Positions 19,640 to 41,100 are shown, counted from the stretch's first letter. The stretch is DNA of 64,000 bases from a virus (IMGVR_UViG_3300027896_000024:1-64000), one strand, 5' to 3'. Numbers and translations are program-made. Notes: generated by a model from the sequence alone, not told the origin.

Positions 19640-19841
19640 TCGTTCCGTTCCGCTGAACGAACTCATGCTCGTATCAGATATTGTGACAGCCACGGGCCGT
19701 TCGCGAGTTGCGGTGTATAACATGATTGAGCGAGGCCGTTTGGTGCCGGCATGGGTATTCGATAACGGGATTATGTTGTTCCTGAAAACGGAACTGGAAA
19801 ACTTTGAATGGCCGAAACCGGGGAGACCAAAAAAATCATGA
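19626..19841 (+). CDS. AlpA/excisionase-like HTH protein
   Basis: SDIVTATGRSRVAVYNMIERGRL HTH; C-terminal PKPGRPKK. Confidence 0.65.
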   Translation: MSQTNRSVPLNELMLVSDIVTATGRSRVAVYNMIERGRLVPAWVFDNGIMLFLKTELENFEWPKPGRPKKS

Positions 19842-20548
19842 TAGCGATGGCGCATCCAGGATTAGAAAGGCAGTTAGGAGTTAATGGGGTAGTTTTGTTC
19901 TCTGGTGGCTTGGACTCGGCAGTAGTCCTGGCCTATGCACAAAGAACGGTAAATAAGGTGACTGCACTGTGCGTGAGTTATGGCCAGTCGTCACCGGAAC
20001 TGAACTTCGCAATTCAGTTTTGCAACAGGCTAGGAATCGATTTTCGGATTGCTGAAATCGGTGGCATGTTTCAGGGTAGAGTAGCTCTGACTCAGGACGC
20101 TGAGCTTCCGACTTCGGATCCGAAATCAGAGGAGCAAAAAGTAACGGTTGTTCCGAATCGAAATGGCGTCCTGTTGATGCTGGGAGTTGCGGAAGCAATT
20201 ATGACCGGAGCATCGAGGGTTTATTCGGGAATCCAATCGGGAGGTAGAATGCTGTATCCAGATAATCGACTAGATTATCTGGAGTGCTTGACTAAGGCGG
20301 CGTTTCTGGCAAACGACGAGTATCCAATCGAACTTAGGCATCCGTTCTGCGGTGCGTGCAAATCAGAAATCGTAAGAGTAGGATCAGTGCTGGGAGTTCC
20401 TTTTGAACTGACTTGTTCTTGCTACCGGCGCTCTGTTGACAATCCGTTTGCATCACAACATTGCGGAGTATGCAAAGCGTGCCAAACAAGGAGAGCGGCA
20501 TTTATTGAGGCGGGCGTTGAGGATCCTACGGAGTACGAAAAGCCGTAA
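19838..20548 (+). CDS. queC: 7-cyano-7-deazaguanine synthase
   Basis: LFSGGLDS, VPNRN, YPD, K..IV, SCY, HCGVCKACQTR. Confidence 0.93.
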   Translation: MIAMAHPGLERQLGVNGVVLFSGGLDSAVVLAYAQRTVNKVTALCVSYGQSSPELNFAIQFCNRLGIDFRIAEIGGMFQGRVALTQDAELPTSDPKSEEQKVTVVPNRNGVLLMLGVAEAIMTGASRVYSGIQSGGRMLYPDNRLDYLECLTKAAFLANDEYPIELRHPFCGACKSEIVRVGSVLGVPFELTCSCYRRSVDNPFASQHCGVCKACQTRRAAFIEAGVEDPTEYEKP

Positions 20549-20739: not shown

Positions 20740-20768
20740 TTGACAAGTATCTATATTTATTCCATAAT
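20740..20768 (+). promoter_or_regulatory. Sigma70-type early promoter
   Basis: TTGACA-17 nt-CATAAT. Confidence 0.8.
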
Positions 20769-20774
20769 ATAGGC

Positions 20775-21418
20775 GAGGTTAAGGATATGAGAACGAGAAC
20801 AAGCAAAAGGGAAACAAACCAAAGGCCAGAGGGGACAAGAAACCCGTCCTCGACCGGCGCGGCTTTCCCGGAGGTGGGGTTCTCGTCGAGCTTGAGCAGC
20901 CATCGCACCCTAGTTTTCTAGGCGCAGGTGGCACGGCGATCGATGATCCTAATTCGGGCTTTTGAGACTCCAAGCCGGGGCGACACGGTGAACCCGGAAG
21001 GAACAAATCGGAGAAAGCGGCTAGGTCGGCCTTAAGACTTTCACCTAAAGAAATCAGGCGAGTAGGGGAAAAGAGAGACGGGGAGACCCGGAGCATCGCG
21101 AAATCCTTTTCCAGCAAAAAGCCGGGTGAATAAAGGATCCGAGCAAAGCGAATCTGAGAGACGGCCAAATGACCCAGTGAGGGGAGGTCGTAAACCAGAT
21201 GAGTCGAGCGGAGTTCCTGGAAGGGGTAACGTCCCTAATTAGAGCGTGGGTACCTGAAAAATTCTTTCCCGTTTTGGTGGTCCGGTGGAAGGGATAAAAT
21301 CTAAGGTTAGCTAATTAGCAAAAGCGATAGACTCCGACCGCAAGTGCAGAGTTCCCGGCTATGCGGACGCCAAGCGAAAGCTCGGTAGGTTTTCTCTCAA
21401 ATCTCCTGTCGAGTTTTA
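20775..21418 (+). ncRNA. Candidate large structured ncRNA (about 650 nt)
   Basis: No convincing ORF over 650 nt in an otherwise dense genome; many hairpins; long-range pairings; bounded by the promoter and ribozyme 1. Confidence 0.5.
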
Positions 21419-21479
21419 GCAGAGGGCAATCAGGTTGTGAGACCTGGTTGTAATGCACGGTTAGGTCCCAAGTCCTAAC
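21419..21479 (+). ncRNA. Twister ribozyme copy 1 (permuted; predicted cut 21451/21452)
   Basis: GCA GAGGG CAATCAGGT-loop-ACCTGGTTG TAA TGC AC; P4 GTTAGG TCCCAAGT CCTAAC. Confidence 0.85.
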
Positions 21480-21498
21480 ATCAAAAGGAGAGAACAAC

Positions 21499-21672
21499 AT
21501 GAAAAACAAAACATGGCCAAACGAAAAAGACGTTTGCTATGATTGCGGAAGCAACATTCCAGGACATCATACTCCGTCATGCGATTTTGCGGAACCTGAT
21601 GACAAGCGCGATTTACCTGAGCAGCCTGGTACTCAATGGTGGACACGTGAAGTACCTGCGGAGTTGAAATAG
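21499..21672 (+). CDS. 57-aa Cys/His protein (absent from the ORF track)
   Basis: AAGGAGAG RBS; MKNKTWPNEKDVCYDCGSNIPGHHTPSC...; TAG overlaps ribozyme 2. Confidence 0.7.
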   Translation: MKNKTWPNEKDVCYDCGSNIPGHHTPSCDFAEPDDKRDLPEQPGTQWWTREVPAELK

Positions 21673-21736
21673 CAGAGGGCCGGCGTAAGCCGGTAATGCA
21701 CTTGCCGGGGGCACCGGCAATCGGTCCCAAGTCCGA
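21672..21736 (+). ncRNA. Twister ribozyme copy 2, with P3 (cut 21694/21695)
   Basis: P1 CCGGC-GTAA-GCCGG; P3 TTGCCGG/CCGGCAA; P4 TCGG TCCCAAGT CCGA. Confidence 0.85.
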
Positions 21737-21782
21737 ACAAGCACAGGGAACAAAACAACACAAAAAGAAAGAGAGAAATCAA

Positions 21783-22157
21783 ATGACGACTTCGAAAAAT
21801 ACGACCACTGCAACCGCAACTGCAACCGCTCCTGAAACCACGGCCCCGGCAGCAGCTCCAAAGGCTCCGACCCAGGCCAAACCGGTCGCCACCAAGAAAG
21901 CGGCCGTCAAGAAGGTCTTTATCTTCGTCGCGGTGGAACCGGACCTGTACCGGCTCACAATCGGATCGAACGCGGACTCGTCCAAGATTCGTAAGCTGCG
22001 TAATCACAACGCCAAGGAGATCAAGCAGGCTGTTGAGAACGCTTCGAACTTCGCGGGCCGGCCGCCCAAGCCGATCACGTTGAAGAAAGCGGATCTGAGC
22101 AAGTTCGGTCCCAAGGCCGCGCCGTTCACGGGTTTGAAGGCTTTCCGGATTGCGTAG
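21783..22157 (+). CDS. Basic Ala/Thr/Lys-rich protein
   Basis: MTTSKNTTTATATATAP...; A-rich leader after ribozyme 2. Confidence 0.65.
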   Translation: MTTSKNTTTATATATAPETTAPAAAPKAPTQAKPVATKKAAVKKVFIFVAVEPDLYRLTIGSNADSSKIRKLRNHNAKEIKQAVENASNFAGRPPKPITLKKADLSKFGPKAAPFTGLKAFRIA

Positions 22158-22162
22158 TTCCT

Positions 22163-22219
22163 GCAGAGGGGGTCGGCTTCGGCCGACCTAATGCACATGC
22201 TGGGTCCCAAGTCCCAGCA
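22163..22219 (+). ncRNA. Twister ribozyme copy 3 (cut 22189/22190)
   Basis: P1 GGTCGGC-TTCG-GCCGACC; P4 TGCTGGG TCCCAAGT CCCAGCA. Confidence 0.87.
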
Positions 22220-22239
22220 CTTCAAAAAGGAGAGACAAC

Positions 22240-22380
22240 ATGAAGAAGTTCTTTATTTGGTTATTTCTGATGTGGGCCGTACTTCACTTCGGAGCCAAGT
22301 GGGGCAAGGAAAACCAGGCGAAGGTGGAACAGCAGATTCACGAGTCAGGAATATTCCAGGTTGCGAATATCAACAAATAG
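22240..22380 (+). CDS. 46-aa membrane/secreted peptide (absent from the ORF track)
   Basis: AAGGAGAG RBS; MKKFFIWLFLMWAVLHFGAKWGKE...; TAG overlaps ribozyme 4. Confidence 0.7.
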   Translation: MKKFFIWLFLMWAVLHFGAKWGKENQAKVEQQIHESGIFQVANINK

Positions 22381-22437
22381 CAGAGGGCCAGGGTTCACGT
22401 CCCTGGTAATGCGGTAGGTCGGTCCCAAGCCCCGACC
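22380..22437 (+). ncRNA. Twister ribozyme copy 4 (cut 22407/22408)
   Basis: P1 CCAGGG/CCCTGG; P4 GGTCGG TCCCAAGCC CCGACC; T2 GGU/GCC. Confidence 0.82.
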
Positions 22438-22518
22438 ACAACGAATCATTCATTCCACAACACAACAAAACGGCCCAGGGCAAGGTAGGGCTGGAAAACC
22501 ACAAAAGGAGAGACAACA

Positions 22519-22983
22519 ATGACCGAGATCAAAACAAACAAAGGCACGTTTGAACTACCGGCCGGTGTTACCTTATCGGATTTAAAATATCCGTCTTGGA
22601 AAAGTTCCAAGCGGTTTGATTATTCCGAGGTTACCAAGCTGGGCCTGGATCATTCGGATTTGGAGTTAGATTTCTGGTACGTAAATTCAATTGGCTGGTG
22701 CCTTCCGACTTTACTTATTCACAGGGCCGGACGGAGATCAGCACCGGGAACAACGGACAGAACGTATGCGGTTGGTGTAAACGGAAATCATTACCGCATC
22801 GGCCATGGACCACACGTTCAGGCTGAGGTTAAGGTGTACGTCAACAAGGCAAATTTGGATCGCCTTCGAAAGTACATCGACCTTCGGAAGTCGGGTGCGG
22901 TACACGCCAACGAAACCCGGGATCGCATTTCAACACGGCGTATGAACACTATGAATCGTCGGAGCAGCTTATTTGGATTTTAG
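22519..22983 (+). CDS. Hypothetical early protein
   Basis: AAGGAGAG RBS; 154 aa; between ribozymes 4 and 5. Confidence 0.75.
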   Translation: MTEIKTNKGTFELPAGVTLSDLKYPSWKSSKRFDYSEVTKLGLDHSDLELDFWYVNSIGWCLPTLLIHRAGRRSAPGTTDRTYAVGVNGNHYRIGHGPHVQAEVKVYVNKANLDRLRKYIDLRKSGAVHANETRDRISTRRMNTMNRRSSLFGF

Positions 22984-23048
22984 CAGAGGGGGGCCGAAAG
23001 GCCCTAATGCCCACCGGATATAGGATCCGGTCAGGTCCCAAGGCCTGA
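22983..23048 (+). ncRNA. Twister ribozyme copy 5, with P3 (cut 23005/23006)
   Basis: P1 GGGCC-GAAA-GGCCC; P3 ACCGGAT/ATCCGGT; P4 loop TCCCAAGG with compensatory T2 CC/GG. Confidence 0.87.
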
Positions 23049-23086
23049 GGGTATTACCAAAAAAGAGAGATTAAGGAGACAATACA

Positions 23087-23806
23087 ATGAGCAAAAAGCA
23101 GAATAACGGCACTGATGATGAATCATTGGTATTCGCTGGCAAGGAGCTCACGTTGGAAGATGAGATGAACATTCTCAAGGGCGGGACAGTAGGCCTGGAA
23201 CAGTTCCTCGAAAACTTCCAGTTTCTGATTTTCGTCCTGGACGAGTCGGGTTCGATGCAAGACCGGCTGCCGAGTGGAGATACTCCGAAGCGTGAGGTTC
23301 AGAAGCGGATTATCAAACGGTATGTGGACGAGAAGATCGGACGCAAGGCCGGCACGATGAAGATCGGTGTTGTCAGCTTCGATGATGAAGCGTCCGTTTG
23401 GCTCCAGGGTTCGTCGGATCCGGTTGCAATCAAGGCCGCGGCGGACCAGTGCAGGGGCGGTGGCGGTACGCACCTCGGGCGCGGAATTCTCAAGGGTCTT
23501 TCATTACTCCACCGGATGAAAGATTATATTCCCCGTCTCGTTCTTACGTCGGATGGTGAGGCACATGATCCGGCTCAGGCAATCGCCGGAGCGGAAGCGG
23601 CCAAGGCCAAGGGCGTCGTAATCGACACGGTGTACATTGGCCCTGGTGGGGGCGGTGACGTATATGCGGATAATGCGGCTGATCTTATGCGGAGAATCGC
23701 TGAGATCACCGGCGGCGTGTTCGAGCGCGTAAACAATCAGTCGGAATTCGAAACCAAGTTTTTCGATGTGATCAAGCGCCCGTTGCTTGCAACCAGTTTG
23801 AAGTAG
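23087..23806 (+). CDS. von Willebrand factor A (VWA) domain protein
   Basis: MIDAS DESGSM, GGGT, LTSDGE, IAEITGG. Confidence 0.88.
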   Translation: MSKKQNNGTDDESLVFAGKELTLEDEMNILKGGTVGLEQFLENFQFLIFVLDESGSMQDRLPSGDTPKREVQKRIIKRYVDEKIGRKAGTMKIGVVSFDDEASVWLQGSSDPVAIKAAADQCRGGGGTHLGRGILKGLSLLHRMKDYIPRLVLTSDGEAHDPAQAIAGAEAAKAKGVVIDTVYIGPGGGGDVYADNAADLMRRIAEITGGVFERVNNQSEFETKFFDVIKRPLLATSLK

Positions 23807-23811
23807 TCCTC

Positions 23812-23864
23812 GCAGAGGGGGGCCGGTAACGGCCCTAATGCACGGGCCGGTCCCAAGTCCGGTC
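23812..23864 (+). ncRNA. Twister ribozyme copy 6 (cut 23836/23837)
   Basis: P1 GGGCCG-GTAA-CGGCCC; P4 GGCCGG TCCCAAGT CCGGTC. Confidence 0.87.
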
Positions 23865-23897
23865 GTCATTACAAACCACAAAAAGGAGAGAACGATC

Positions 23898-24599
23898 ATG
23901 GTATATGCTGATGATTTTCCAGAGCAACAAAAACAACAGGAAGCGCGGAAAGCGGCTATTAGGGCTCACAGGGCCGAGATGGACGCTAAGATCGAACAGT
24001 GCACGTTGGCCTTAGTCGTCGCGTTGGAAAACTATGGCCACAAGGTAGAACGGCATGGGCACAAGCAGGACGACAAAGTGATCCTCGGCGACATCTATCA
24101 TATTGACGGGGTGTACTTTTGGGATCTGCAGTTCTACGAACAAGGGCTTTACGCTCCTGGTGGATATCTCAGGGGTGCCGGAAATGGTAAACTGGCATTG
24201 CATTATCAGGATCCGAATTCAGTGCTTCAAAGGCGCGTTATCATTCGTGAGAAGAAAAGCGGTTTTGATTACAACACAATCGCCGCTACGTTGATAGCCT
24301 TGGCAGCCCCGTTAATACCGGCTGCTAAGGAACGGTTGGAGCGGGAAGCGAAGCAGGCCGAGGCCAACGCCAAAGCGGAACAGATCCGGGACATGGCGAG
24401 CGCTTTACAGCAACAGTTTCGGAGCAAAACGTTGACGAACTTGAGTATTCAATATCAGAACTGGTGCGGCAAATTTGAGGTTTCGTTCAATACGGAGACC
24501 TTGGAAGAGGCGCAAGCAATTCTGAGCCGGTTGGTTCCGAATAAAACGGAATCGCCCGACGACGCAATCGAAGAAGCGAGGCGTAGAATACACGGTTAG
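23898..24599 (+). CDS. Hypothetical early protein
   Basis: AAGGAGAG RBS before ATG 23898. Confidence 0.7.
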   Translation: MVYADDFPEQQKQQEARKAAIRAHRAEMDAKIEQCTLALVVALENYGHKVERHGHKQDDKVILGDIYHIDGVYFWDLQFYEQGLYAPGGYLRGAGNGKLALHYQDPNSVLQRRVIIREKKSGFDYNTIAATLIALAAPLIPAAKERLEREAKQAEANAKAEQIRDMASALQQQFRSKTLTNLSIQYQNWCGKFEVSFNTETLEEAQAILSRLVPNKTESPDDAIEEARRRIHG

Positions 24600-24673
24600 C
24601 AGAGGGGGGCGAGCTAACACAGTCGCCCTAATGCACTAGTACATTCTTTAAGTACTAATGGTCCCAAGTCCAT
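24599..24673 (+). ncRNA. Twister ribozyme copy 7, with P3 (cut 24629/24630)
   Basis: P1 GGGCGA/TCGCCC; P3 TAGTAC/GTACTA; P4 ATGG TCCCAAGT CCAT. Confidence 0.83.
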
Positions 24674-24701
24674 AAACAAAAAAGAGAGAAGAGGAGATAA
24701 C

Positions 24702-25466
24702 ATGAACCCAAGGAAGCTGTTGGCACAGCTCAGGCGGGTGTATTCACAGTTTACCAAAATGGCTAAGCAGCCGATCGAGGACAGGAACAAGTTGCTCGTA
24801 TCTGCGGTGGCCATAATGGATGCTGTAGTGCGCCTGGCAATTGTTCAATACAAATCGCAACTGCCTCAGAACGCGGCCAAGCTTTTCGATATCGCGGGAA
24901 AGTGCAGAGCTAGGGCGATGAGTACAACATTCAACGAAGAGAAGGATTTATCACTTCGGATAGCACTTCTGAAAATGGAACAAATGATTCCCATGTTAAG
25001 CCCGCCGGCGTTTCAGCTCTATATTGACAAGTTCAATCTTAGGGCGTCGGCACATAAAGAGGGCAAGTCGGCCAAAGGTCCCAAAGCACCACGGGCACCA
25101 AGAACACCGGCGAGCGCCCAGCCTCAAAATCAGTATGGTGTACGGCGGAAGTTTTCTCCGGTGCCTCAAATAGTACCGGTTGGTTCGCCGCTGATTATCA
25201 ACATTCTATTTGCTAATCTAAAGACCCCGTTCAGGGCGTCTTCGGCAAAGGCAAAGGCATTTCGTTTCTGGTTCGAGGACTTCCGTACTAAGGAAGAGGT
25301 CGCTCAATACCTGAACCAGGTTACCAACGGGAAGGGCAAATCGCTAGTCTGGTTACTCTGGAACAAGAGGAACGGCGGCGACGAGTCGATGCACTGGTCG
25401 TTTATTCAAAAGGGCAACAAGAGCAAGCTGGTTGTATGCGATCCGACCAAGCTTCCGAAACCATAG
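24702..25466 (+). CDS. Basic protein with a C-terminal domain shared with 34305-35120
   Basis: TPFRASSAKAKAF...GGDESMHW vs TPFRAGSAKEKAF...GGDKSMSW. Confidence 0.7.
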   Translation: MNPRKLLAQLRRVYSQFTKMAKQPIEDRNKLLVSAVAIMDAVVRLAIVQYKSQLPQNAAKLFDIAGKCRARAMSTTFNEEKDLSLRIALLKMEQMIPMLSPPAFQLYIDKFNLRASAHKEGKSAKGPKAPRAPRTPASAQPQNQYGVRRKFSPVPQIVPVGSPLIINILFANLKTPFRASSAKAKAFRFWFEDFRTKEEVAQYLNQVTNGKGKSLVWLLWNKRNGGDESMHWSFIQKGNKSKLVVCDPTKLPKP

Positions 25467-25529
25467 CAGAGGGGCAGCAGGCCTGAGGAACCTGCTGCTA
25501 ATGCACATTCCGGGTCCCAAGTCCCGGAA
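25466..25529 (+). ncRNA. Twister ribozyme copy 8 (cut 25499/25500)
   Basis: P1 GCAGCAGG/CCTGCTGC; P4 TTCCGGG TCCCAAGT CCCGGAA. Confidence 0.87.
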
Positions 25530-25549
25530 CACAAAAAGGAGAGAGCAAC

Positions 25550-25768
25550 ATGGCAGAGATTTTGAAGTGCGAGAAATGCGGCCAAAAGAATAGGGTCGAT
25601 ATATCGCGTTTAGCTCAGTCTATGTGTGCTAAGTGCGGTTGTCCTTTATTTATTCGGCCAGCACCCGGAAGAGATCTTATTGGAGATCTGGCCAACAAGC
25701 TGGAAGCGGCAGCTAAGAATGAGAGGTTCCGTAGAACGCAGGAATACATTTATAGAAGTCGTAACTAA
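25550..25768 (+). CDS. Zinc-ribbon protein resembling the thioredoxin-2 N-terminal finger
   Basis: CEKCGQKNRV...CAKCG. Confidence 0.65.
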   Translation: MAEILKCEKCGQKNRVDISRLAQSMCAKCGCPLFIRPAPGRDLIGDLANKLEAAAKNERFRRTQEYIYRSRN

Positions 25769-25821
25769 GCAGAGGGGGGCCGAAAGGCCCTAATGCACGG
25801 CTTCGGTCCCAAGTCCGAAGC
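25769..25821 (+). ncRNA. Twister ribozyme copy 9 (cut 25791/25792)
   Basis: P1 GGGCC-GAAA-GGCCC; P4 GCTTCGG TCCCAAGT CCGAAGC. Confidence 0.87.
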
Positions 25822-25844
25822 GTCATTACAAAAAGGGAGACAAC

Positions 25845-26318
25845 ATGGAACCAAGACAGTTCGAGGCACAATGCTACAAAACACTGGAAGAGTACGATCG
25901 TACTTATTTCGGCAGCGTAGGCAGCGTGATCGGGATTCGCCTTACTCGGTTTGCTAGAGATTACGAAGCACTCCAGCAGTTCGAGGCAATAACGCGAAAA
26001 CGATTCGGGTTGGTTATGGTGACGCTGGGTATGTACGATTCGGAGTCTCGCCTGGTGTATCTTAATTACCACGTCAGGCACCTGGTAAATAAAGGCTACT
26101 TTACCACGGAGTTGCGGGCGGTCTTATACCATGAGTTGATTCATGCGGTCTTGTGCAATGCGCATCAGCCTATCAGGTTAGGGCTGTACCGCTGTTATTC
26201 ACAAGGCGGCCACGGACCTGCTTTTCAAAAGCTCTGGAACAGTAATAATGAGCTTCGAGAGGTAAACGTGCAGCCGTTATGTTCCGCGGTTTGGGACAGA
26301 ATGGAGAAGCGGCTATGA
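25845..26318 (+). CDS. SprT-like zinc metalloprotease
   Basis: VLYHELIHA and GHGPAF motifs. Confidence 0.8.
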   Translation: MEPRQFEAQCYKTLEEYDRTYFGSVGSVIGIRLTRFARDYEALQQFEAITRKRFGLVMVTLGMYDSESRLVYLNYHVRHLVNKGYFTTELRAVLYHELIHAVLCNAHQPIRLGLYRCYSQGGHGPAFQKLWNSNNELREVNVQPLCSAVWDRMEKRL

Positions 26319-26896
26319 ACATCCAGGCGTTTTTCGATCAGCTTAAACTCGAACTCTCATTACTTAAACACACGGTGGATGATGAGTTCGAGATGTTTGA
26401 TAATAGGCCGCTTCGGTTAACGGTCGCAGGTTCCTTGGGATCAGATTCCCAGGCAATCGCATTCGGTTTCTACGGAGATCGAAAAGTGCTTCGGGGTGCT
26501 ATGAGCCCCGAGGCTATTGCTTCCGCGATCCATATGTATCTGCAAACCAGGAACGTAGGTACCGGGGCAAAACCACAACCGAACAGAGACATTCTCAATA
26601 CCAAACGGCCGTACGATCAGTACAAACAGTCACAGCAACAAAGACCTCATACAAAACCGATCAAGCCTCAGGAACCTAAACGTCGAGTTTGGGCAATGGG
26701 GCCGTCACAGTTTCAGGGTACACCGCTAGACCAGTTAAGGTTGGCGGACTTCGATGGTAAGGTTCAAACAGTCACAGTCAAGGGTGAGATCAAGACGGCA
26801 TCAGACCTGGTGTTGGCGGACTTGCCCGAAAAACAACAGCTTATGCTCAAGATACTTGAGCGGGCACTCAATAGGTTGAACAAACAGTTATCCTAA
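26315..26896 (+). CDS. Hypothetical protein
   Basis: ATGA overlap with the SprT-like gene. Confidence 0.65.
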   Translation: MNIQAFFDQLKLELSLLKHTVDDEFEMFDNRPLRLTVAGSLGSDSQAIAFGFYGDRKVLRGAMSPEAIASAIHMYLQTRNVGTGAKPQPNRDILNTKRPYDQYKQSQQQRPHTKPIKPQEPKRRVWAMGPSQFQGTPLDQLRLADFDGKVQTVTVKGEIKTASDLVLADLPEKQQLMLKILERALNRLNKQLS

Positions 26897-26911
26897 AAAG
26901 GAGAGAACAAC

Positions 26912-27313
26912 ATGGCTAAGCGAGTTTTGACTTGCGGTAATGAGGATTGCAAGCAAAAGAATAACGTCGATATGGACCGCCTGAAGGCGGCCTACTGCGG
27001 GAAGTGCTCGTTTCCGATGTACATGGCCGTCGAACTCCAAGTTCGTGAGGACGAGGAGGAGGAATCGGTCGATGATCTGATTGACGAAATGGCCGGTGCG
27101 GAAGAGGACGATGAACCGGAAGAGGACGAGGAAGATGATTCGGAAGAGGAAGCCGAGGAAATCTTTCTCTGCCCGCTTTGTGGACAGACTGAGGTACCTG
27201 AGGAAGGGCGGGCCTGCTCCAAGTGCCTAGCCGCTCAGAAAAAAGCGGCCAAGGGCAAGGCAGGGGCGAAAAAACCCGCATCCAAGGGCAAGACCAAACC
27301 GAAAGTAAACTAG
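26912..27313 (+). CDS. Zinc-ribbon protein with acidic linker and basic tail
   Basis: N-terminal finger similar to 25550-25768; second CxxC...CxxC. Confidence 0.7.
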   Translation: MAKRVLTCGNEDCKQKNNVDMDRLKAAYCGKCSFPMYMAVELQVREDEEEESVDDLIDEMAGAEEDDEPEEDEEDDSEEEAEEIFLCPLCGQTEVPEEGRACSKCLAAQKKAAKGKAGAKKPASKGKTKPKVN

Positions 27314-27373
27314 CAGAGGGGACCGGGCCAGCACGGCCGGTCTAATGCGCAGTCCCGGTCCCAAGTCCGGGGC
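27313..27373 (+). ncRNA. Twister ribozyme copy 10 (cut 27343/27344)
   Basis: P1 GACCGG/CCGGTC; P4 GTCCCGG TCCCAAGT CCGGGGC; T2 GC/GU. Confidence 0.85.
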
Positions 27374-27420
27374 GCATTGTTAGTACTAACATTCATTCTC
27401 ACAAAAGGGAGAAAACGAAC

Positions 27421-27609
27421 ATGGCAATCAGTGCTGAAATCAAGGGCAAGAATTTGGTAGTGACGATTCCGGTTAACGATCCGCCTGAGCCTTCCGGTTC
27501 CGGCAAGTCGTTGGTGGTTGCGTCTTCGCACGGCAATCAGGAGACGACCTGCAAGGTGAACGGGAAGAACCTGGTGATCGGCCTGAACGCTTACATCCGC
27601 AACAAGTAG
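27421..27609 (+). CDS. Conserved small protein (SGSGKSLVVASSHGN family)
   Basis: 62 aa; S.SGKS.VVAS..GN...LN.Y pattern. Confidence 0.7.
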   Translation: MAISAEIKGKNLVVTIPVNDPPEPSGSGKSLVVASSHGNQETTCKVNGKNLVIGLNAYIRNK

Positions 27610-27668
27610 GCAGAGGGGGGCGGGCTAGTATAGCCGCCCTAATGCACAAGCCGGTCCCAAGTTCGGCT
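27610..27668 (+). ncRNA. Twister ribozyme copy 11 (cut 27640/27641)
   Basis: P1 GGGCGG..CTA/TAGCCGCCC; P4 AGCCGG TCCCAAGT TCGGCT. Confidence 0.85.
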
Positions 27669-27688
27669 ATTCAAAAAGGAGAGAACCT

Positions 27689-27955
27689 ATGGTACACGTT
27701 CCAAGGCAGTTGACTACGGAAGAGGCTATCATCGAGGCGTACGAGCTTACCTGGGATCAAATAGCCCCAGATATTCTAGGTCGCGATGAGACCGCCAGCG
27801 TCGATCGGGACACCGTCATGGATTGCTGCGCGGATCACGTTCGTATTCACGGCGCTATGTCCAAGGAAGTAGAGGCAGCGTACAAGCTGCTATCCTGGGA
27901 AGAAAAGAAGCGGTTGCTCAGGAAGGCGTTCCCGCACAAGACGTACGGATACTAG
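27689..27955 (+). CDS. Hypothetical early protein
   Basis: AAGGAGAG RBS. Confidence 0.7.
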   Translation: MVHVPRQLTTEEAIIEAYELTWDQIAPDILGRDETASVDRDTVMDCCADHVRIHGAMSKEVEAAYKLLSWEEKKRLLRKAFPHKTYGY

Positions 27956-27965
27956 GGAGGTTTAT

Positions 27966-28166
27966 ATGGCAGAGATCTCCAGATGGGCAAACACTCAAGC
28001 TACCGCAGAGGTTGCTTGTCCCCGTTGTGGTATGCAGGCCGGTGTTGAGTGCAGAACTCCAAAGATGCGTAGGTTATTCACAATTCACACCGAACGAGGG
28101 AATGCCTATTTTGCCAAGATAGGTCGTGACGAATGGCTTCGTAGGTACTCAATATCAAAACACTAG
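27966..28166 (+). CDS. Phage zinc-finger protein
   Basis: CPRCGMQAGVEC...HTER. Confidence 0.7.
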   Translation: MAEISRWANTQATAEVACPRCGMQAGVECRTPKMRRLFTIHTERGNAYFAKIGRDEWLRRYSISKH

Positions 28167-28220
28167 CAGAGGGCGGCCGGCAACGGCCGTAATGCACAGC
28201 TCGGGTCCCAAGTCCTGAGT
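28166..28220 (+). ncRNA. Twister ribozyme copy 12 (cut 28190/28191)
   Basis: P1 CGGCCG-GCAA-CGGCCG; P4 GCTCGGG TCCCAAGT CCTGAGT. Confidence 0.87.
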
Positions 28221-28240
28221 ATAAAAAAGGAGAGAACAAC

Positions 28241-28684
28241 ATGGATACAATCATCGAAGATAAACATTCGTTGGCACATCTTGAACAGGTCGTGCGTAAA
28301 TTGTTCGAGAGGTTGGATGTTTCCGAACTTCGTCGTGGTCCGCATCCGATACCAACAGGGATAGGCGAAATCAAGATTGACGATGAAACGCTGGACGTAT
28401 TCGGCGGCCTGTGGGCGGTTGCGTGCGAGATCACAGTAACCCGAAAGTATTTGGGTGGCCGGGGCCGCAAAGCAAAAGTTCCTGGATTTGTGGTCGGCGT
28501 CGTAGTACATCATCATAATTATCCGCATGAACCGGATGATTACGAACCTGTTGAAACGGGCCAGTTCGAGTCACCTTACAAAGCCGCAGAGGCTCTGGCA
28601 TTGTTGTATTACCAAGACCGTATCAATAGTGCGATGGAGGACATCAGCATGGCAGAGGTTGCGGAGCAGTTCCACGAAGATTAG
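28241..28684 (+). CDS. Hypothetical early protein
   Basis: AAGGAGAG RBS, 147 aa. Confidence 0.7.
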   Translation: MDTIIEDKHSLAHLEQVVRKLFERLDVSELRRGPHPIPTGIGEIKIDDETLDVFGGLWAVACEITVTRKYLGGRGRKAKVPGFVVGVVVHHHNYPHEPDDYEPVETGQFESPYKAAEALALLYYQDRINSAMEDISMAEVAEQFHED

Positions 28685-28734
28685 CAGAGGGGGGCCGCAA
28701 GGCCCTAATGCACGAGCTGGTCCCAAGTCCAGCT
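28684..28734 (+). ncRNA. Twister ribozyme copy 13 (cut 28706/28707)
   Basis: P1 GGGCC-GCAA-GGCCC; P4 AGCTGG TCCCAAGT CCAGCT. Confidence 0.87.
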
Positions 28735-28763
28735 AGGCAGATCACAAAAAGGAGAGAACAACG

Positions 28764-29300
28764 ATGGCTGATAAAGAGGTAGAGGCGACATATACCGAGG
28801 AGCCGTCTAAGTATCCTGTATTCGTGCAGGAGCTTATGGATCGCTTCAAGGCCGTTGAGCGCAAGCTAACGGAAAACAAGTATCAAATGGACGCAGAGTT
28901 AAAGCGTACCCAGGAGCGCCTGGAGGCCAGTTATACCAAGCAGCGGGATTTGGACGGGCAGAAGTTAATCGTTCATTTCCTGGAAGTGTTGGATAATCTG
29001 GATTGGGCATTATCACATGCTACTGAATCGGCCGACAGCTTTCATTCGGGTGTACGTCTAGTGGCGGATCTGTTTCGGAAGAAACTCCAGCAACTAGGCG
29101 TAGTACTCGTACCGTTGAAGGACAAGCCTTACGATCCGGAATTCGCGCAAGCTATCTTTGCACAAGAGGTAGATAAGCCCGAGTTACACGGCATCGTGCT
29201 TCAAGAACACGTCACTTGCTACGCGATTGATGCGACTATCATCCGTCCTGGTCAAGTGGTCGTAGGCAAGAAGCGGGAGGTGTCTAATGGTAGCGGTTAA
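28764..29300 (+). CDS. grpE: GrpE-like nucleotide exchange factor
   Basis: N-terminal coiled coil, LEVLDNLDWAL, GVRLV, YDPEFAQAI, Y...IIRPGQVVV. Confidence 0.8.
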   Translation: MADKEVEATYTEEPSKYPVFVQELMDRFKAVERKLTENKYQMDAELKRTQERLEASYTKQRDLDGQKLIVHFLEVLDNLDWALSHATESADSFHSGVRLVADLFRKKLQQLGVVLVPLKDKPYDPEFAQAIFAQEVDKPELHGIVLQEHVTCYAIDATIIRPGQVVVGKKREVSNGSG

Positions 29301-29538
29301 GTGCTGTAAGTGTTTTCGGAATACCAACAAGTTCCGGTGTTGTTCCTGCGGTCACAGTATTTGTACTTCATGTAAAGAGCAGACTCGAAAATTACCGGTT
29401 CGCAAGTTGGTGAGTGACGAGGACTTGTTATTCCTGTTGGAAGTATTTGAACGGTCTGGCCAGTCATTATCCTATCGGGCCAAGGTGTACCGAGTAGAGG
29501 CTATGCATCGCGGTCTTATCAAGAAGGAGGCCAAGTGA
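29287..29538 (+). CDS. Cys-rich zinc-finger protein
   Basis: CCKC...CCSCGHSICTSC. Confidence 0.6.
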   Translation: MVAVKCCKCFRNTNKFRCCSCGHSICTSCKEQTRKLPVRKLVSDEDLLFLLEVFERSGQSLSYRAKVYRVEAMHRGLIKKEAK

Positions 29539-29738
29539 AAAGGAAGAGGTTGATGGTCGTTGTACAACCGGTAACAAATCTCCCGGGCTTGTATACCTGG
29601 TCAATACAACGGGCTGGCCGGGTGATTGCGATATACCCGGAGACGTACAAAACAAAGGACTCGGCTATTCGTTATGCTGAGCCCTTTGCTCAGGAAATCG
29701 GAGCAACATTCGCTACCGAAAAGGAGGTACAGGGTTAG
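29535..29738 (+). CDS. Small protein, YegP/DUF1508-like pattern
   Basis: YTWSI...GRVIA..PETYKTKDSAIR. Confidence 0.5.
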   Translation: MKRKRLMVVVQPVTNLPGLYTWSIQRAGRVIAIYPETYKTKDSAIRYAEPFAQEIGATFATEKEVQG

Positions 29739-29796
29739 CAGAGGGGACCGGTCTGAGGGCCGGTCTAATGCGCATGGTCGGTCCCAAGTCCGACCA
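29738..29796 (+). ncRNA. Twister ribozyme copy 14 (cut 29766/29767)
   Basis: P1 GACCGGTC-TGAG-GGCCGGTC; P4 TGGTCGG TCCCAAGT CCGACCA. Confidence 0.87.
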
Positions 29797-29808
29797 AGGG
29801 AGGCACCT

Positions 29809-30477
29809 ATGAGGCGTATTTCTCGTGAGGGGTGGCGCCGGCGTAAGATCGCTGAGTACTACCAACGGCGGGACGATGAACGAATACAAAAAAGGGAGGA
29901 CAACATGATTACACCAGAATATGTTGAATGGGAAAAGGCTCAGGAGCGGGCAGCTTTTGAGTCTAAGATGCGCAGGGACGAGGCTTTGGAAAAGCAGTCC
30001 CAAGTGCAGCAGAGGAAGACAATGGCGGATACGAGCAATCAGGATTCAGCCGTGCCGGCACAGCTCAAGGACTTGATGTTGATATTCGCTGGTAATGCAT
30101 ATTTCACAATTCGAAACAACACAACAGGCAATCGCTTCACGTTTCGCGTATCGGTTTCAAAACCGAATCCACAATTTCCGAACCCGGTTCACTTCGTTAG
30201 TGTACTCTGCGGGCCGGATAACCGTACGAACTATGCGTATATCGGGTTCGTCAGCAAAGCACTTCAATATCGGCACGCAGTCAAGTCAATCATCACGGAA
30301 CAAGCGGTATCTGTTCAAGCTTTCAAATGGTTACTGGCTAGGGTAGCTACTAAGCAGCCCTTGCCTCCCGAAGTGCAGATCTGGCACGAGGGTCGGTGTT
30401 GCCGATGTGGCCGAATGCTAACAGTTCCTGAGTCCATTGAGCACGGCCTAGGGCCGGAATGCTACGGGAGGATATGA
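29809..30477 (+). CDS. DUF6011-like protein (alternative start 29905)
   Basis: C-terminal GRCCRCGRMLTVPESIEHGLGPEC. Confidence 0.75.
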   Translation: MRRISREGWRRRKIAEYYQRRDDERIQKREDNMITPEYVEWEKAQERAAFESKMRRDEALEKQSQVQQRKTMADTSNQDSAVPAQLKDLMLIFAGNAYFTIRNNTTGNRFTFRVSVSKPNPQFPNPVHFVSVLCGPDNRTNYAYIGFVSKALQYRHAVKSIITEQAVSVQAFKWLLARVATKQPLPPEVQIWHEGRCCRCGRMLTVPESIEHGLGPECYGRI

Positions 30478-30707
30478 TGCGAGTTACTCAGATGGAACGC
30501 GCTGCGATTCTCCAGATGTTTGTACTCCCGGATGGTGTATCGTATCTCGGGGAGCAACCGGATCCGGCTGGCGGGTCGATATCACTTTATCACGATGTAG
30601 TCACAGGGTCGTCATTCATGGTTCACGAAGGCGAAAACATCGAGCAGGCGGTAAACAGAATCCGAGAATCATTTTTCCCGGAGGAATTCAAGGTTTGGGA
30701 AGCATAG
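30474..30707 (+). CDS. Hypothetical protein
   Basis: GGAGG RBS; ATGA overlap; TAG overlaps ribozyme 15. Confidence 0.6.
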   Translation: MMRVTQMERAAILQMFVLPDGVSYLGEQPDPAGGSISLYHDVVTGSSFMVHEGENIEQAVNRIRESFFPEEFKVWEA

Positions 30708-30803
30708 CAGAGGGGGTGGTTGCCTTTACAAAAGTAGGCATTAAATGGTAGGGCCTGATCCTATCAGCCACCTAATGCGGCAGTCCTGGTCCCAAGTCCC
30801 AGG
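30707..30803 (+). ncRNA. Twister ribozyme copy 15, with branched P1 extension (cut 30773/30774)
   Basis: P1 GGTGGT/GCCACC enclosing two hairpins; P4 CCTGG TCCCAAGTC CCAGG; T2 GGC/GUC. Confidence 0.8.
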
Positions 30804-30828
30804 CGCAGAAAATGGTTGTTGTCTCCTA

Positions 30829-30879
30829 GGCGGGCAACGGGTCTGGTGCGTTGCCAGATCCGACCCGCCCTTTTATTTT
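30829..30879 (+). terminator. Intrinsic terminator closing the ribozyme-punctuated unit
   Basis: GGCGGG..CGGGTCTGG/CCAGATCCG..CCCGCC stem then TTTTATTTT. Confidence 0.8.
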
Positions 30880-40441: not shown

Positions 40442-40486
40442 TATTCAGAAGTCGTATTACTTATTCCACTGAAAAGAGAGGGGTAT

Positions 40487-40972
40487 ATGGCACAGAAGTT
40501 GGACAAGGCGACGTTTATGCAACAGGTCAAGATAAACCTTGCGGACTTGACAGTAGACATGTCGGAGCAAGCGGCCCTGTTCGCCAATTATGCAACGATG
40601 AAAGTTATCGCAGAGGACGAGGAGGCCCGTAGGAAGCTGGAGCGGGAAGCAATGGAGTACCAGCTCGACGAGAAGTTACGTAAAACACTATCGGACCCGA
40701 CCGAAAAGAAAATTACGGCGGCTATCAAACGTAATCCGGCATATGTCAAGGCCGACATTGCGTACCTGGACGCGAAGCATGTAACGTCCATGCTTTCGGT
40801 GGCTGTCGAGGCATTTGAAATGCGCGCCAGGATGTTGTCGTCGATTGGCGCATTGACAAGATCGGAAATGGAACAGCAGTACATGGGAACACCGGCGGGA
40901 AACCGGATGGCGTCCCAAGCTGAGAAGTTAGCCGATCGAGTGAAACGGAAATTACATGGTAACCAGCCGTGA
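40487..40972 (+). CDS. UvsY-like recombination mediator
   Basis: Helical, 'TEKKITAAI...Y...AVEAFEMRARML' pattern; upstream of SSB and RecA. Confidence 0.6.
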   Translation: MAQKLDKATFMQQVKINLADLTVDMSEQAALFANYATMKVIAEDEEARRKLEREAMEYQLDEKLRKTLSDPTEKKITAAIKRNPAYVKADIAYLDAKHVTSMLSVAVEAFEMRARMLSSIGALTRSEMEQQYMGTPAGNRMASQAEKLADRVKRKLHGNQP

Positions 40973-41100
40973 GTTATTTCAGGTGTTAGTACTTATCGTA
41001 GTCGTGCAAGCGGTCTTGCTCACTTTGCAATCATGGTGGTTGTCAAAGCGGATAGCAGAAGGCGTGGCACGATTCTTTATGAATCTAGCGAAAGGAGAGT

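What the first reader, a model, noticed from the sequence alone, without database searches (positions are those of the whole stretch)
21419..30803. Early operon punctuated by 15 twister ribozymes: a self-processing polycistron
Seen: 15 intergenic copies of GCA-GAGGG-[hairpin]-TAA-TGC-[optional hairpin]-[stem-TCCCAAG(T/G/C)-stem], starting at 21419, 21672, 22163, 22380, 22983, 23812, 24599, 25466, 25769, 27313, 27610, 28166, 28684, 29738 and 30707. All lie between one sigma70 promoter (20740) and one terminator (about 30830). Stem sequences differ between copies but keep pairing, while core nucleotides are nearly invariant. Knowledge: this matches the twister ribozyme core (UAA cleavage loop, P2, P4 loop UCCCAAG, GAGGG), permuted so the ends open where P5 would be; twisters cut U^A and leave 5'-OH and 2',3'-cyclic phosphate. 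Inference: the roughly 10-kb transcript is cut without protein into 14 RNAs of about 218-1550 nt carrying 20 genes (10 monocistronic), each with an A-rich leader and RBS. 5'-OH ends would avoid 5'-monophosphate-stimulated decay. I do not know of a described operon with a ribozyme at nearly every gene boundary.
Basis: partly seen in the sequence, partly recalled or inferred. Interest (0 to 1): 0.97.

Follow-up and report, generated by a model that had tools for sequence, protein, structure and literature searches.

The report
Fifteen twister ribozymes punctuating phage operon
Fifteen intact copies of a known self-cutting RNA (the type-P5 twister ribozyme) sit in every sizeable gap between the 20 small genes of one operon of an uncultivated freshwater phage and most likely chop its 10-kb message into 14 hairpin-capped mRNAs: an unusually large and regular example of an arrangement proposed for phages since 2011, not a new kind of element.

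Summary
Rfam finds 15 Twister-P5 matches on the + strand at the stated positions: 12 above the gathering score and 3 within 1 bit of it. There are none elsewhere in the 82.9-kb virus record. All core nucleotides are kept. P1, P4 and both pseudoknots covary: 96% of cells are paired against 66% in shuffles. Every intergenic gap over 15 nt in the operon holds a ribozyme (13 of 13), and the six tight junctions hold none. Two further copies trim a 640-nt leader and the terminator. In 10 of 14 copies the G of the upstream TAG stop is the ribozyme's first base. All upstream products would end in a flush GC-rich hairpin.

The block has the window's only near-consensus sigma-70 promoter and a strong terminator. 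The predicted fragments (218-1552 nt, 20 genes, 10 monocistronic) reproduce. Cleavage itself is untested, because no RNA data exist.

The novelty claim is overstated. Clustered ribozymes flanking phage genes were described and tested in vitro in 2011 (hammerheads). This scan has already noted similar twister arrays in at least 51 other genomes, and I confirmed arrays of 4-20 copies in eight other viral records. I found no paper describing arrays this large or the stop-codon fusion. A relative, G009, shares four genes and the ribozyme punctuation.

The parts
20740..20768 (+). Sigma-70-type promoter (TTGACA, 17-nt spacer, CATAAT)
   Evidence: Matches 11 of 12 positions; it is the only match of 11 or more in the 64-kb window.
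20775..21418 (+). About 640-nt purine-rich leader without an ORF; ribozyme 1 would cut it off
   Evidence: No + strand ORF of 30 aa or more with a start codon. MFE z = -0.34. No DNA homolog in six other array-bearing phages.
21419..21479 (+). Twister-P5 ribozyme 1 (cut after 21451); no gene upstream
   Evidence: 45.3 bits; 10-bp P1 and 6-bp P4.
21672..21736 (+). Twister-P5 ribozyme 2 with P3 hairpin (cut after 21694)
   Evidence: 44.7 bits; stop-codon TAG's G is its first base.
22163..22219 (+). Twister-P5 ribozyme 3 (cut after 22189)
   Evidence: 50.8 bits.
22380..22437 (+). Twister-P5 ribozyme 4 (cut after 22407); T2 variant GGU/GCC
   Evidence: 46.2 bits; T2 change seen.
22983..23048 (+). 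Twister-P5 ribozyme 5 with P3 hairpin (cut after 23005); T2 variant CC/GG
   Evidence: 37.1 bits against a gathering score of 37.6; parsed core is intact.
23812..23864 (+). Twister-P5 ribozyme 6 (cut after 23836)
   Evidence: 54.3 bits.
24599..24673 (+). Twister-P5 ribozyme 7 with P3 hairpin (cut after 24629)
   Evidence: 37.5 bits; core is intact.
25466..25529 (+). Twister-P5 ribozyme 8 (cut after 25499)
   Evidence: 50.5 bits.
25769..25821 (+). Twister-P5 ribozyme 9 (cut after 25791)
   Evidence: 48.0 bits.
27313..27373 (+). Twister-P5 ribozyme 10 (cut after 27343)
   Evidence: 53.6 bits.
27610..27668 (+). Twister-P5 ribozyme 11 (cut after 27640)
   Evidence: 43.5 bits.
28166..28220 (+). Twister-P5 ribozyme 12 (cut after 28190)
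   Evidence: 49.7 bits.
28684..28734 (+). Twister-P5 ribozyme 13 (cut after 28706)
   Evidence: 48.0 bits.
29738..29796 (+). Twister-P5 ribozyme 14 (cut after 29766)
   Evidence: 56.2 bits.
30707..30803 (+). Twister-P5 ribozyme 15 with a 58-nt branched P1 (cut after 30773); no gene downstream before the terminator
   Evidence: 36.7 bits; core, 8-bp P1 base and 5-bp P4 are intact.
21499..30707 (+). Twenty small genes in 14 ribozyme-bounded units: g01 to g08 singly, g09-g11 together, g12, g13-g14, g15, g16-g18, g19-g20
   Evidence: ORFs and junction table. Gaps holding a ribozyme are 70-138 nt; gaps without one are -19 to +15 nt.
23087..23806 (+). g05, von Willebrand factor type A (vWA) domain protein
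   Evidence: Pfam VWA_2 at 1e-11; ortholog in G009 at 46% identity, also flanked by twisters.
25845..26318 (+). g09, SprT-like zinc metalloprotease domain (weak match)
   Evidence: Pfam SprT-like, 24.5 bits against a cut-off of 25.6.
28764..29300 (+). g16, GrpE-like protein
   Evidence: Pfam GrpE at 6e-22.
29809..30477 (+). g19, DUF6011 protein (phrog_20259)
   Evidence: It is the only block gene with homologs in other arrays (L026, L072); in L026 the homolog is followed directly by a twister.
30774..30878 (+). About 105-nt tail RNA released by ribozyme 15: P4 hairpin, a single-stranded segment (30809-30828) antisense to the block's RBS leaders, then the terminator
   Evidence: The architecture is not conserved in G009.
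30823..30878 (+). Intrinsic terminator
   Evidence: Folds at -35.8 kcal/mol, z = -3.2, followed by a U tract.

Best explanation
The 15 elements are functional type-P5 twister self-cleaving ribozymes built into one host-RNA-polymerase transcription unit of a tailed dsDNA phage.

As the roughly 10-kb RNA is made, each ribozyme folds and cuts itself after the U of UAAUGC. This releases a roughly 680-nt leader, 14 mRNAs of 218-1552 nt (10 with one gene, 4 with two or three tightly coupled genes) and a roughly 105-nt tail.

In the P5 permutation the cut lies in the middle of the motif. Each upstream product therefore ends, right after its stop codon, in the flush GC-rich P1 hairpin with a 2',3'-cyclic phosphate. 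Each downstream product starts with 5'-OH-AAUGC, then the P4 hairpin, then a standard A-rich leader with AAGGAGAGA and the start codon.

The first and last copies separate no genes, so the purpose appears to be uniform ribozyme-made ends on every message rather than just separating cistrons. The likely pay-off is twofold. The ends resist exonucleases and are poor substrates for 5'-monophosphate-dependent decay. Each gene unit also has a context-independent translation start, making it a plug-in cassette.

Shown here: ribozyme identity, intactness, covariation, placement rules, the single promoter and terminator, and recurrence in other phages. Inferred: cleavage in vivo, end chemistry (from the known chemistry of the class), stabilisation and insulation.
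For: Identity: 12 matches above and 3 matches within 1 bit of the Rfam gathering score, all full length.

Intact core: all copies keep GCAGAGGG, UAAUGC and the UCCCAAG loop.

Structure under selection: on 74 twisters from this and nine other loci, 96.3% of 1448 cells are paired, against 66.5% in shuffles and 28-40% when partners are slid. 19 of 21 pairs show compensatory changes. These include all T1 and T2 pseudoknot pairs, which were not part of the aligning model. Stems are copy-specific in this window.

Placement: 13 of 13 internal gaps over 15 nt hold a ribozyme and 0 of 6 tight junctions do. All are in the sense orientation. The stop codon is fused to or within 6 nt of the ribozyme's 5' end in 14 of 14 copies that follow a gene. 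The same flush placement holds for 69% of 149 twisters in other viral contigs.

Product ends: all 15 upstream products end in a flush hairpin of -12 to -23 kcal/mol.

Leader: the motif AAAGGAGAGA has 10 of its 11 exact matches in the block.

Transcription unit: one promoter and one terminator.

Conservation: relative G009 (portal 55% identical) has 6 twisters flanking orthologs of g05, g07, g08 and g20 in the same order, although the proteins are only 36-46% identical.

Precedent: clustered hammerheads in prophages cleave 2-kb polycistronic fragments in vitro (PMC3088659).
Against: There are no RNA data. The only run holding the sequence is the source DNA metagenome.

Three copies score just under the Rfam threshold.

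Cleavage does not change predicted RBS accessibility (0.67 cleaved against 0.61 uncleaved), so unmasking of the RBS is not the point.

A ribosome terminating on the fused stop codon would unfold the ribozyme's 5' strand, so timing relative to translation matters and is unknown.

In some hosts a 5'-OH end attracts rather than avoids decay. The example I recall is RNase J1 acting on the glmS product in Bacillus; this is from my own knowledge and was not checked here.

The host is unknown.
Confidence: 0.8

Rival explanations
1. The ribozymes serve mainly as joints of mobile gene cassettes. Their conserved cores would act as short homology patches at which phages swap, gain or lose gene units, and RNA cleavage would be secondary.
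For: G000 and its relative G009 share g05, g07, g08 and g20 in order but differ by whole ribozyme-bounded units: g06 and g09-g19 are present only here. Gene content of arrays in other phages is unrelated; only g19 recurs. Arrays occur in phages with unrelated portal proteins.
Against: The identical stretches are only 6-12 nt long. Strong compensatory covariation in stems and pseudoknots shows selection on the RNA fold, not on DNA identity. At 36-46% protein identity the breakpoints cannot be placed precisely. Modularity may be a consequence of insulated expression units rather than their cause.
Confidence: 0.12
2. Each excised fragment closes into a circular mRNA. Every fragment carries a 3' half-ribozyme at its 5' end and a 5' half-ribozyme at its 3' end. 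These can pair through the invariant P2, T1 and T2 and bring the 5'-OH and the cyclic phosphate together, either for reverse ligation or for host RtcB.
For: The ends are chemically compatible, given the known chemistry of the class. P1 and P4 each lie wholly within one half, and the inter-half contacts are invariant among copies. The first and last ribozymes give every fragment both halves.
Against: The phage encodes no RtcB or RNA ligase. There are no RNA reads to show back-splice junctions. Perreault et al. looked for circular or spliced products of hammerhead arrays and found none. Earlier follow-ups of this scan on other arrays found no support.
Confidence: 0.06
3. Cleavage is conditional, and the stop-codon fusion makes each ribozyme a sensor of upstream translation. 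A ribosome sitting on the UAG prevents folding, so the junction is cut only when the upstream gene is not being translated, or only after ribosome release.
For: In 10 of 14 copies the G of the stop TAG is the first base of the ribozyme, and the other four lie within 6 nt. The fusion is enriched fourfold over chance in other phage twisters (24% against 6%).
Against: Twisters are among the fastest self-cleavers (from the literature as I recall it) and would normally cut before the first ribosome arrives. Flush placement is equally explained by leaving no unprotected 3' tail after the stop codon. No ligand or switch element is visible.
Confidence: 0.08
4. The copies are selfish or decaying repeats with no role for the phage.
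For: Self-cleaving ribozymes are associated with mobile elements in other systems (PMC7761336, listed).
Against: No copy is degenerate. Stems differ between copies yet keep pairing. Positions are kept in a relative whose proteins are only 36-46% identical. Placement follows a strict rule.
Confidence: 0.02

Closest known systems
Type-P5 twister self-cleaving ribozyme (Rfam RF02684, clan CL00120; class of Roth et al. 2014 as reviewed in PMC5408937)
   Same: Same order of elements (P2 3' strand, GAGGG, closed P1, UAA cut site, P2 5' strand, optional P3, P4 with UCCCAAG loop), same conserved nucleotides, and both the T1 and T2 pseudoknots.
   Different: Nothing at the level of the motif. The differences lie in copy number and context. 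Here 15 copies sit in 9.4 kb, each fused to the upstream stop codon and followed by a standard RBS leader. No P5 pairing is evident.
Clustered hammerhead ribozymes flanking genes in prophage operons (Perreault et al. 2011, PMC3088659)
   Same: Several self-cleaving ribozymes, in the sense orientation, flank single genes or short gene blocks of phage origin. Processing of long phage transcripts into single-gene mRNAs was proposed, and cleavage was shown in vitro for triple arrangements.
   Different: That work concerns a different ribozyme class, with two or three copies against 15 here. It did not report occupancy of every gap, terminal copies that trim leader and terminator, or stop-codon fusion.
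Synthetic ribozyme insulators and RNA-processing parts for operons (RiboJ, Lou et al. 2012; Csy4 processing, Qi et al. 2012; cited from memory, not checked here)
   Same: A cut between cistrons plus a hairpin and a standard RBS gives each gene a context-independent 5' end.
   Different: Those are engineered parts, whereas this is a natural phage operon. In my folds cleavage did not change RBS accessibility, so insulation is unproven here.
Twister-flanked circular RNA expression (Tornado system, Litke and Jaffrey 2019; cited from memory, not checked here) and ribozyme-bearing circular RNAs (PMC7761336)
   Same: Fragments bounded by twisters carry 5'-OH and 2',3'-cyclic phosphate ends, which RtcB can join.
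   Different: No ligase is encoded by the phage, no circle evidence exists, and the fragments are ordinary mRNAs with stop codons and RBS.

Membership tests
Twister ribozyme, type P5 (RF02684) | Covariance-model score at or above the curated gathering score (37.6 bits), full-length match | tested here: met
   12 copies score 43.5-56.2 bits. 3 copies score 36.7-37.5 bits, just under the cut-off; all three carry large optional inserts. All matches span model positions 1-58.
Twister ribozyme, type P5 (RF02684) | Essential stems P1, P2 and P4, supported by compensatory changes | tested here: met
   P1 has 5-10 bp and P4 4-7 bp in every copy, with copy-specific sequences. On 74 sequences all P1 and P4 pairs show changes on both sides; P2 is nearly invariant.
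Twister ribozyme, type P5 (RF02684) | Two pseudoknots (T1, T2) linking the P4 loop to the P1-P2 internal loop and to the bases after P2 | tested here: met
   T1 is 100% paired, with GC-to-AU changes at all 3 pairs. T2 is 98.4% paired, with AU, GC and GU variants. Within this window T2 shows AC/GU, CC/GG, GC/GU, GGU/GCC and GGC/GUC. All six G009 copies have GUG:CAC in T1.
Twister ribozyme, type P5 (RF02684) | Conserved core nucleotides, including the N^A cleavage dinucleotide in UAA | tested here: met
   GCAGAGGG, TAATGC and GGTCCCAAG are invariant in the aligned copies.
Twister ribozyme, type P5 (RF02684) | Circular permutation with P1 closed by a loop and the termini at the P5 position | tested here: met
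   Order of elements in all 15 copies, and the alignments to the P5 model.
Twister ribozyme, type P5 (RF02684) | Site-specific self-cleavage giving 2',3'-cyclic phosphate and 5'-OH ends | not testable with these tools
   No RNA run holds the sequence. This needs in vitro transcription or end mapping.
Ribozyme-processed phage polycistron (arrangement of Perreault et al. 2011) | Several self-cleaving ribozymes, sense to the genes, flanking single genes or short gene blocks of a phage | tested here: met
   Junction table. Phage identity: terminase, portal, DNA polymerase and helicase, in an IMG/VR record that CheckV rates 100% complete.
Ribozyme-processed phage polycistron (arrangement of Perreault et al. 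2011) | All ribozymes lie within one transcript | tested here: inconclusive
   One near-consensus promoter and one strong terminator bracket the block, and internal promoter-like sites are at the chance level. No transcript data exist.
Ribozyme-processed phage polycistron (arrangement of Perreault et al. 2011) | Observed cleavage products of the polycistronic RNA | not testable with these tools
   no RNA holder is listed.
3'UTR-derived trans-acting sRNA (considered for the 105-nt tail) | Single-stranded seed between a 5' structure and an intrinsic terminator with a U tail | tested here: met
   Fold of 30774-30878: positions 30809-30828 are unpaired between P4 and the terminator.
3'UTR-derived trans-acting sRNA (considered for the 105-nt tail) | Seed complementarity to its targets beyond chance | tested here: inconclusive
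   It is the best of about 1600 + strand 30-mers against the 20 block start regions (-16.9 kcal/mol against -9.3 +/- 1.4 for shuffles), but the next natural segment reaches -15.6. The motif occurs once on the + strand and its complement five times in the leaders.
3'UTR-derived trans-acting sRNA (considered for the 105-nt tail) | Conservation of the seed and architecture in relatives | tested here: not met
   The G009 tail has only a 6-8-nt anti-SD stretch (rank 7 of 795) and no terminator-type architecture. Other arrays show nothing comparable.

The most novel reading that the evidence does not exclude
The array is a complete self-timed expression programme. After the whole operon has been transcribed, the last ribozyme frees a roughly 105-nt sRNA-like tail (5' hairpin, single-stranded GGUUGUUGUCUCCU, terminator). 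This tail pairs with the standard AGGAGAGAACAAC leaders that the other ribozymes have placed at the 5' ends of the 14 mRNAs, and so shuts off translation of the early genes. That would be a ribozyme-released anti-leader RNA acting on ribozyme-made messages.
Probability: 0.1. Interest if true: 0.8.

Novelty: new member of a known kind. Interest (0 to 1): 0.5.

Why it matters
What twister and hammerhead ribozymes do in bacteria and phages is still an open question. The group that discovered them wrote in 2023 that the reason for their clustering near phage genes "is still unknown" (PMC10085705).

This operon is a very clean test bed. It has 15 intact ribozymes, a simple placement rule (every gap over 15 nt), stop codons fused to the ribozyme, uniform leaders, and terminal copies that have no cistron to separate. 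The terminal copies point to ribozyme-made ends as the selected trait.

The whole 10-kb block could be synthesised and expressed with and without core-dead mutations. That would measure whether ribozyme-made ends change mRNA life-time, translation and gene-to-gene independence. It is also a natural counterpart of the ribozyme insulators used in synthetic biology.

It is not a new class of element, and it is one of many such arrays in uncultivated phages.

Tried and rejected
RNA evidence: the look-up of sequencing runs listed no RNA holder, only the source freshwater DNA metagenome.

Leader 20775-21418:
- The fold is not more stable than shuffles (z = -0.34).
- There is no DNA similarity in five array-bearing phages or in the G009 leader.
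- GGA and ANGGA motifs are not enriched, so the CsrA-sponge idea is rejected.

'Cleavage unmasks the RBS': predicted unpaired probability of the start regions is 0.67 cleaved against 0.61 uncleaved, so this is rejected.

Phage-encoded end-repair enzymes: no RtcB (PF01139) or RNA ligase (PF09414) in the record.

Homologs of block genes in 120 fetched loci: only g19 recurs. The search for related loci with g07 found nothing. Helicase relatives at 35% identity carry no twisters.

Anti-leader tail in other arrays: weak in G009 and absent elsewhere.

Literature: eight searches found no paper describing large twister arrays in phages (plus reading). Roth et al. 2014 and Weinberg et al. 2015 are not held in the library. 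What their supplements say about arrays could therefore not be checked.

Alignment: the MAFFT alignment of the copies put the variable stems in inconsistent register, so I used anchor-based counts and a covariance-model alignment instead. In that alignment, copies with P3 are mis-registered at P4, because the model takes P3 for P4.

Cultured relatives: the best GenBank portal match is only 34% identical, so no isolate is at hand.

Full report
**1. Observation**

An Rfam 15 scan of the whole window at gathering thresholds returns only one family, Twister-P5 (RF02684). It returns it 12 times, all on the + strand between 21418 and 29793, at 43.5-56.2 bits against a gathering score of 37.6. These are also full-length matches.

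The window is bases 1-64000 of an 82,928-nt IMG/VR virus record that CheckV rates 100% complete. The whole record has exactly these 15 matches, and 14 control genomes have none.

Parsing each copy gives GCAGAGGG, a P1 hairpin, TAATGC, an optional P3, then P4 closed by a TCCCAAG loop. The three sub-threshold copies have intact cores. They differ by a P3 hairpin (22983, 24599; 21672 also has one) or by a 58-nt branched P1 (30707).

**2. Are they intact and under selection?**

Within the window, each P1 pairs with its own partner arm over 5-10 consecutive pairs (mean 6.6). When arms are swapped between copies the mean is 1.5. P4 gives 4-7 pairs against 2.8. The five outermost P1 positions each show 2-4 pair types, and all 75 cells are paired.

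I built a covariance model from 11 copies. I used it to align 74 twisters from the window and nine other viral loci. On that alignment I counted pairs for P2, P1 and P4 plus the two pseudoknots:
- 96.3% of 1448 cells are paired, against 66.5 +/- 0.9% in shuffles and 28-40% when partners are slid by 1-3 columns.
- 19 of 21 pairs show changes on both sides.
- The covariation score is 0.668 against 0.145 in shuffles.
- T1 is 100% paired with GC-to-AU changes at all three pairs, and T2 is 98.4% paired. The pseudoknots were not part of the aligning model, so their counts are not biased by the fit.

One caveat: rows with a P3 insert are mis-registered at P4.

Within this window, T2 (the two bases after UAAUGC with the 3' end of the P4 loop) shows AC/GU, CC/GG, GC/GU, GGU/GCC and GGC/GUC. 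A first-reader note said this, and I verified it.

**3. Placement rules**

I defined 20 genes from 21499 to 30707.
- All 13 internal junctions with a gap of 70-138 nt hold a ribozyme.
- All six junctions with gaps of -19 to +15 nt hold none.
- One further copy precedes gene 1 and one follows gene 20.
- In 10 of the 14 copies that follow a gene, the G of the TAG stop is the first base of GCAGAGGG. Two abut it and two lie 6 nt downstream of the stop. 13 of the 14 stops are TAG.

After P4 comes an A-rich leader of 12-86 nt. Its motif AAAGGAGAGA is almost private to the block, with 10 of its 11 exact matches in the window there.

The flush position is general. Among 149 distinct twister-like matches in other viral contigs, 69% have an ORF of 35 codons or more ending within 9 nt upstream. 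In 24% the G of TAG is the first base of the ribozyme, against about 6% expected by chance.

**4. Transcription unit**

The promoter at 20740 (TTGACA, 17-nt spacer, CATAAT) matches 11 of 12 positions and is the only match of 11 or more in the 64 kb. Internal promoter-like sites are at the chance level.

The terminator at 30823-30878 folds at -35.8 kcal/mol (z = -3.2) and is followed by a U tract. The simple scan missed it because of a bulged stem.

Read-through from the QueC-like gene upstream cannot be excluded. 'Early' is an inference from the host-type promoter and the small accessory-type genes.

**5. Gene content and the phage**

Flanking and distal genes identify a tailed dsDNA phage. 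It has a clamp loader, a QueC-like gene, a helicase, a family A DNA polymerase, an SbcC-like protein, a large terminase and a portal.

Block genes are mostly unannotated. Recognisable ones are a vWA protein (g05), a weak SprT-like match (g09), zinc ribbons, a phage zinc-finger protein (g14), a GrpE-like protein (g16) and a DUF6011 protein (g19).

The best portal match among GenBank phages is 34% identical, so the lineage is uncultivated and the host is unknown.

**6. Predicted products**

All 15 upstream products end in a flush P1 hairpin of -12 to -23 kcal/mol with no single-stranded tail. Four downstream products can also bury their 5' AAUG in an extended hairpin.

RBS accessibility is about the same before and after cleavage (0.61 and 0.67). 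Unmasking of the RBS is therefore not the function.

The first and last copies separate no cistrons. They remove the roughly 640-nt leader and the terminator, so all 14 mRNAs receive the same two ribozyme-made ends. The P5 permutation is the one that leaves a hairpin on both products. I take this as the best clue to function: defined, capped ends plus a standard leader for each unit. Stabilisation and insulation remain inferences from general knowledge of bacterial RNA decay.

**7. Elsewhere**

Rfam or whole-record searches confirm arrays of 13 (G001, 89 kb), 20 (G004, 90.6 kb), 11-12 (G002), 7 (G012), 6 (G009), 5 (G011, G005) and 4 (G010).

The portals of G001, G004, G010 and G011 are unrelated to this phage's portal. 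The architecture therefore occurs in different phage lineages.

G009 is the closest relative I found, with a portal 55% identical. Its six twisters flank orthologs of g05, g07, g08 and g20 in the same order, followed by the helicase. It lacks g06 and g09-g19. All six of its ribozymes carry a P3 and a compensated T1 (GUG:CAC).

So the punctuation has been kept while the proteins diverged to 36-46% identity. The two phages differ by ribozyme-bounded units. That is compatible with cassette-like turnover but does not prove it.

**8. Prior knowledge**

Perreault et al. 2011 reported multiple hammerheads flanking single genes or short blocks in prophages. [quoted passage not shown]

Reviews repeat the idea for twisters and call the biology speculative (PMC6765202; PMC5408937). 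In 2023 the reason for the clustering was 'still unknown' (PMC10085705).

I found no paper describing arrays of this size, full gap occupancy or stop-codon fusion. However, the two primary twister papers are not held in the library, so I could not check them.

This scan has already noted the same arrangement in at least 51 other genomes. I re-verified two of those, G001 and G004.

**9. Side lead: the tail RNA**

The roughly 105-nt tail cut off by the last ribozyme has a 5' hairpin, a single-stranded stretch and the terminator. The stretch contains GGUUGUUGUCUCCU. This is complementary to the block's AGGAGAGAACAAC leaders as 6 + 6 bp around one mismatch, or as 10 contiguous bp for some leaders.

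It is the best of about 1600 sampled + strand 30-mers for pairing with the 20 start regions: -16.9 kcal/mol against -9.3 +/- 1.4 for shuffles, with a natural runner-up at -15.6. The motif is unique on the + strand.

The architecture is not conserved in G009 or in other arrays. Part of the stretch could simply mask the RBS of the next gene in read-through RNA. I rate a trans-acting role at about 10%.

**10. Verdict**

The element belongs to a known ribozyme family in a known, though untested, type of arrangement. It is an exceptionally regular and large example that makes the open question of ribozyme function in phages experimentally approachable.

Noticed in passing
window 20775-21418: A roughly 640-nt purine-rich stretch without a usable ORF lies between the promoter and ribozyme 1, which would release it with a P1-hairpin 3' end. 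It is not unusually stable (z = -0.34), GGA motifs are not enriched, and it cannot be aligned to G009. G009 nevertheless also has an ORF-poor, purine-rich stretch of a few hundred nt before its first twister. Its role is unknown.
   Followed up: partly
window 30774-30878: The tail RNA released by the last ribozyme has an sRNA-like layout and a single-stranded segment (30809-30828) antisense to the block's standard RBS leaders. It ranks first of about 1600 segments for pairing with the 20 start regions. The feature is not conserved in other arrays.
   Followed up: partly
window 23005-23060, 23836-23872, 25791-25828, 27343-27380: In four units the sequence just after P4 is complementary to the 5'-terminal AAUGC(A/G)C of the downstream product. 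The cut 5' end would therefore be buried in one long hairpin. The other ten units lack this.
   Followed up: partly
window 30723-30764: Ribozyme 15 has a 42-nt insert in the P1 loop that folds into two extra hairpins. It is the only copy with such an insert, and it is the copy that precedes the terminator.
   Followed up: no
window 17434-17503: A second sigma-70-like promoter (10 of 12 positions) is followed by the only exact copy of the AAAGGAGAGA leader motif outside the ribozyme block. No ribozyme is present there.
   Followed up: no
window 957-4259: Four consecutive genes of 270-279 aa are paralogs of one another (27-41% identity, alternating in two subtypes) and have no Pfam match.
   Followed up: partly
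window 56326-62442: A 2038-aa protein directly after the portal gene combines a Mu-F-like head domain, a NUDIX domain and an ADP-ribosyltransferase domain. It looks like a head-packaged, possibly injected, host-modifying enzyme.
   Followed up: partly
window 19808-20548: A QueC-like gene lies just upstream of the ribozyme operon. It suggests 7-deazaguanine modification of the phage DNA.
   Followed up: no
L122 (G009:32000-51887, minus strand), twisters at record positions 38848-42408: All six twisters of the relative carry a P3 hairpin and a variant core (GAGUGG with loop UCACAAG), which is a compensated T1 pseudoknot. Their stop codons are also fused to the ribozyme's 5' end.
   Followed up: yes
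window, junctions 26315, 26896-26912, 27955-27966, 29287, 29535, 30459: The six junctions without a ribozyme are overlaps or gaps of at most 15 nt. The multi-gene units (g09-g11, g13-g14, g16-g18, g19-g20) therefore look translationally coupled and may encode partners. One example is the GrpE-like g16 with two small cysteine-rich proteins.
   Followed up: no
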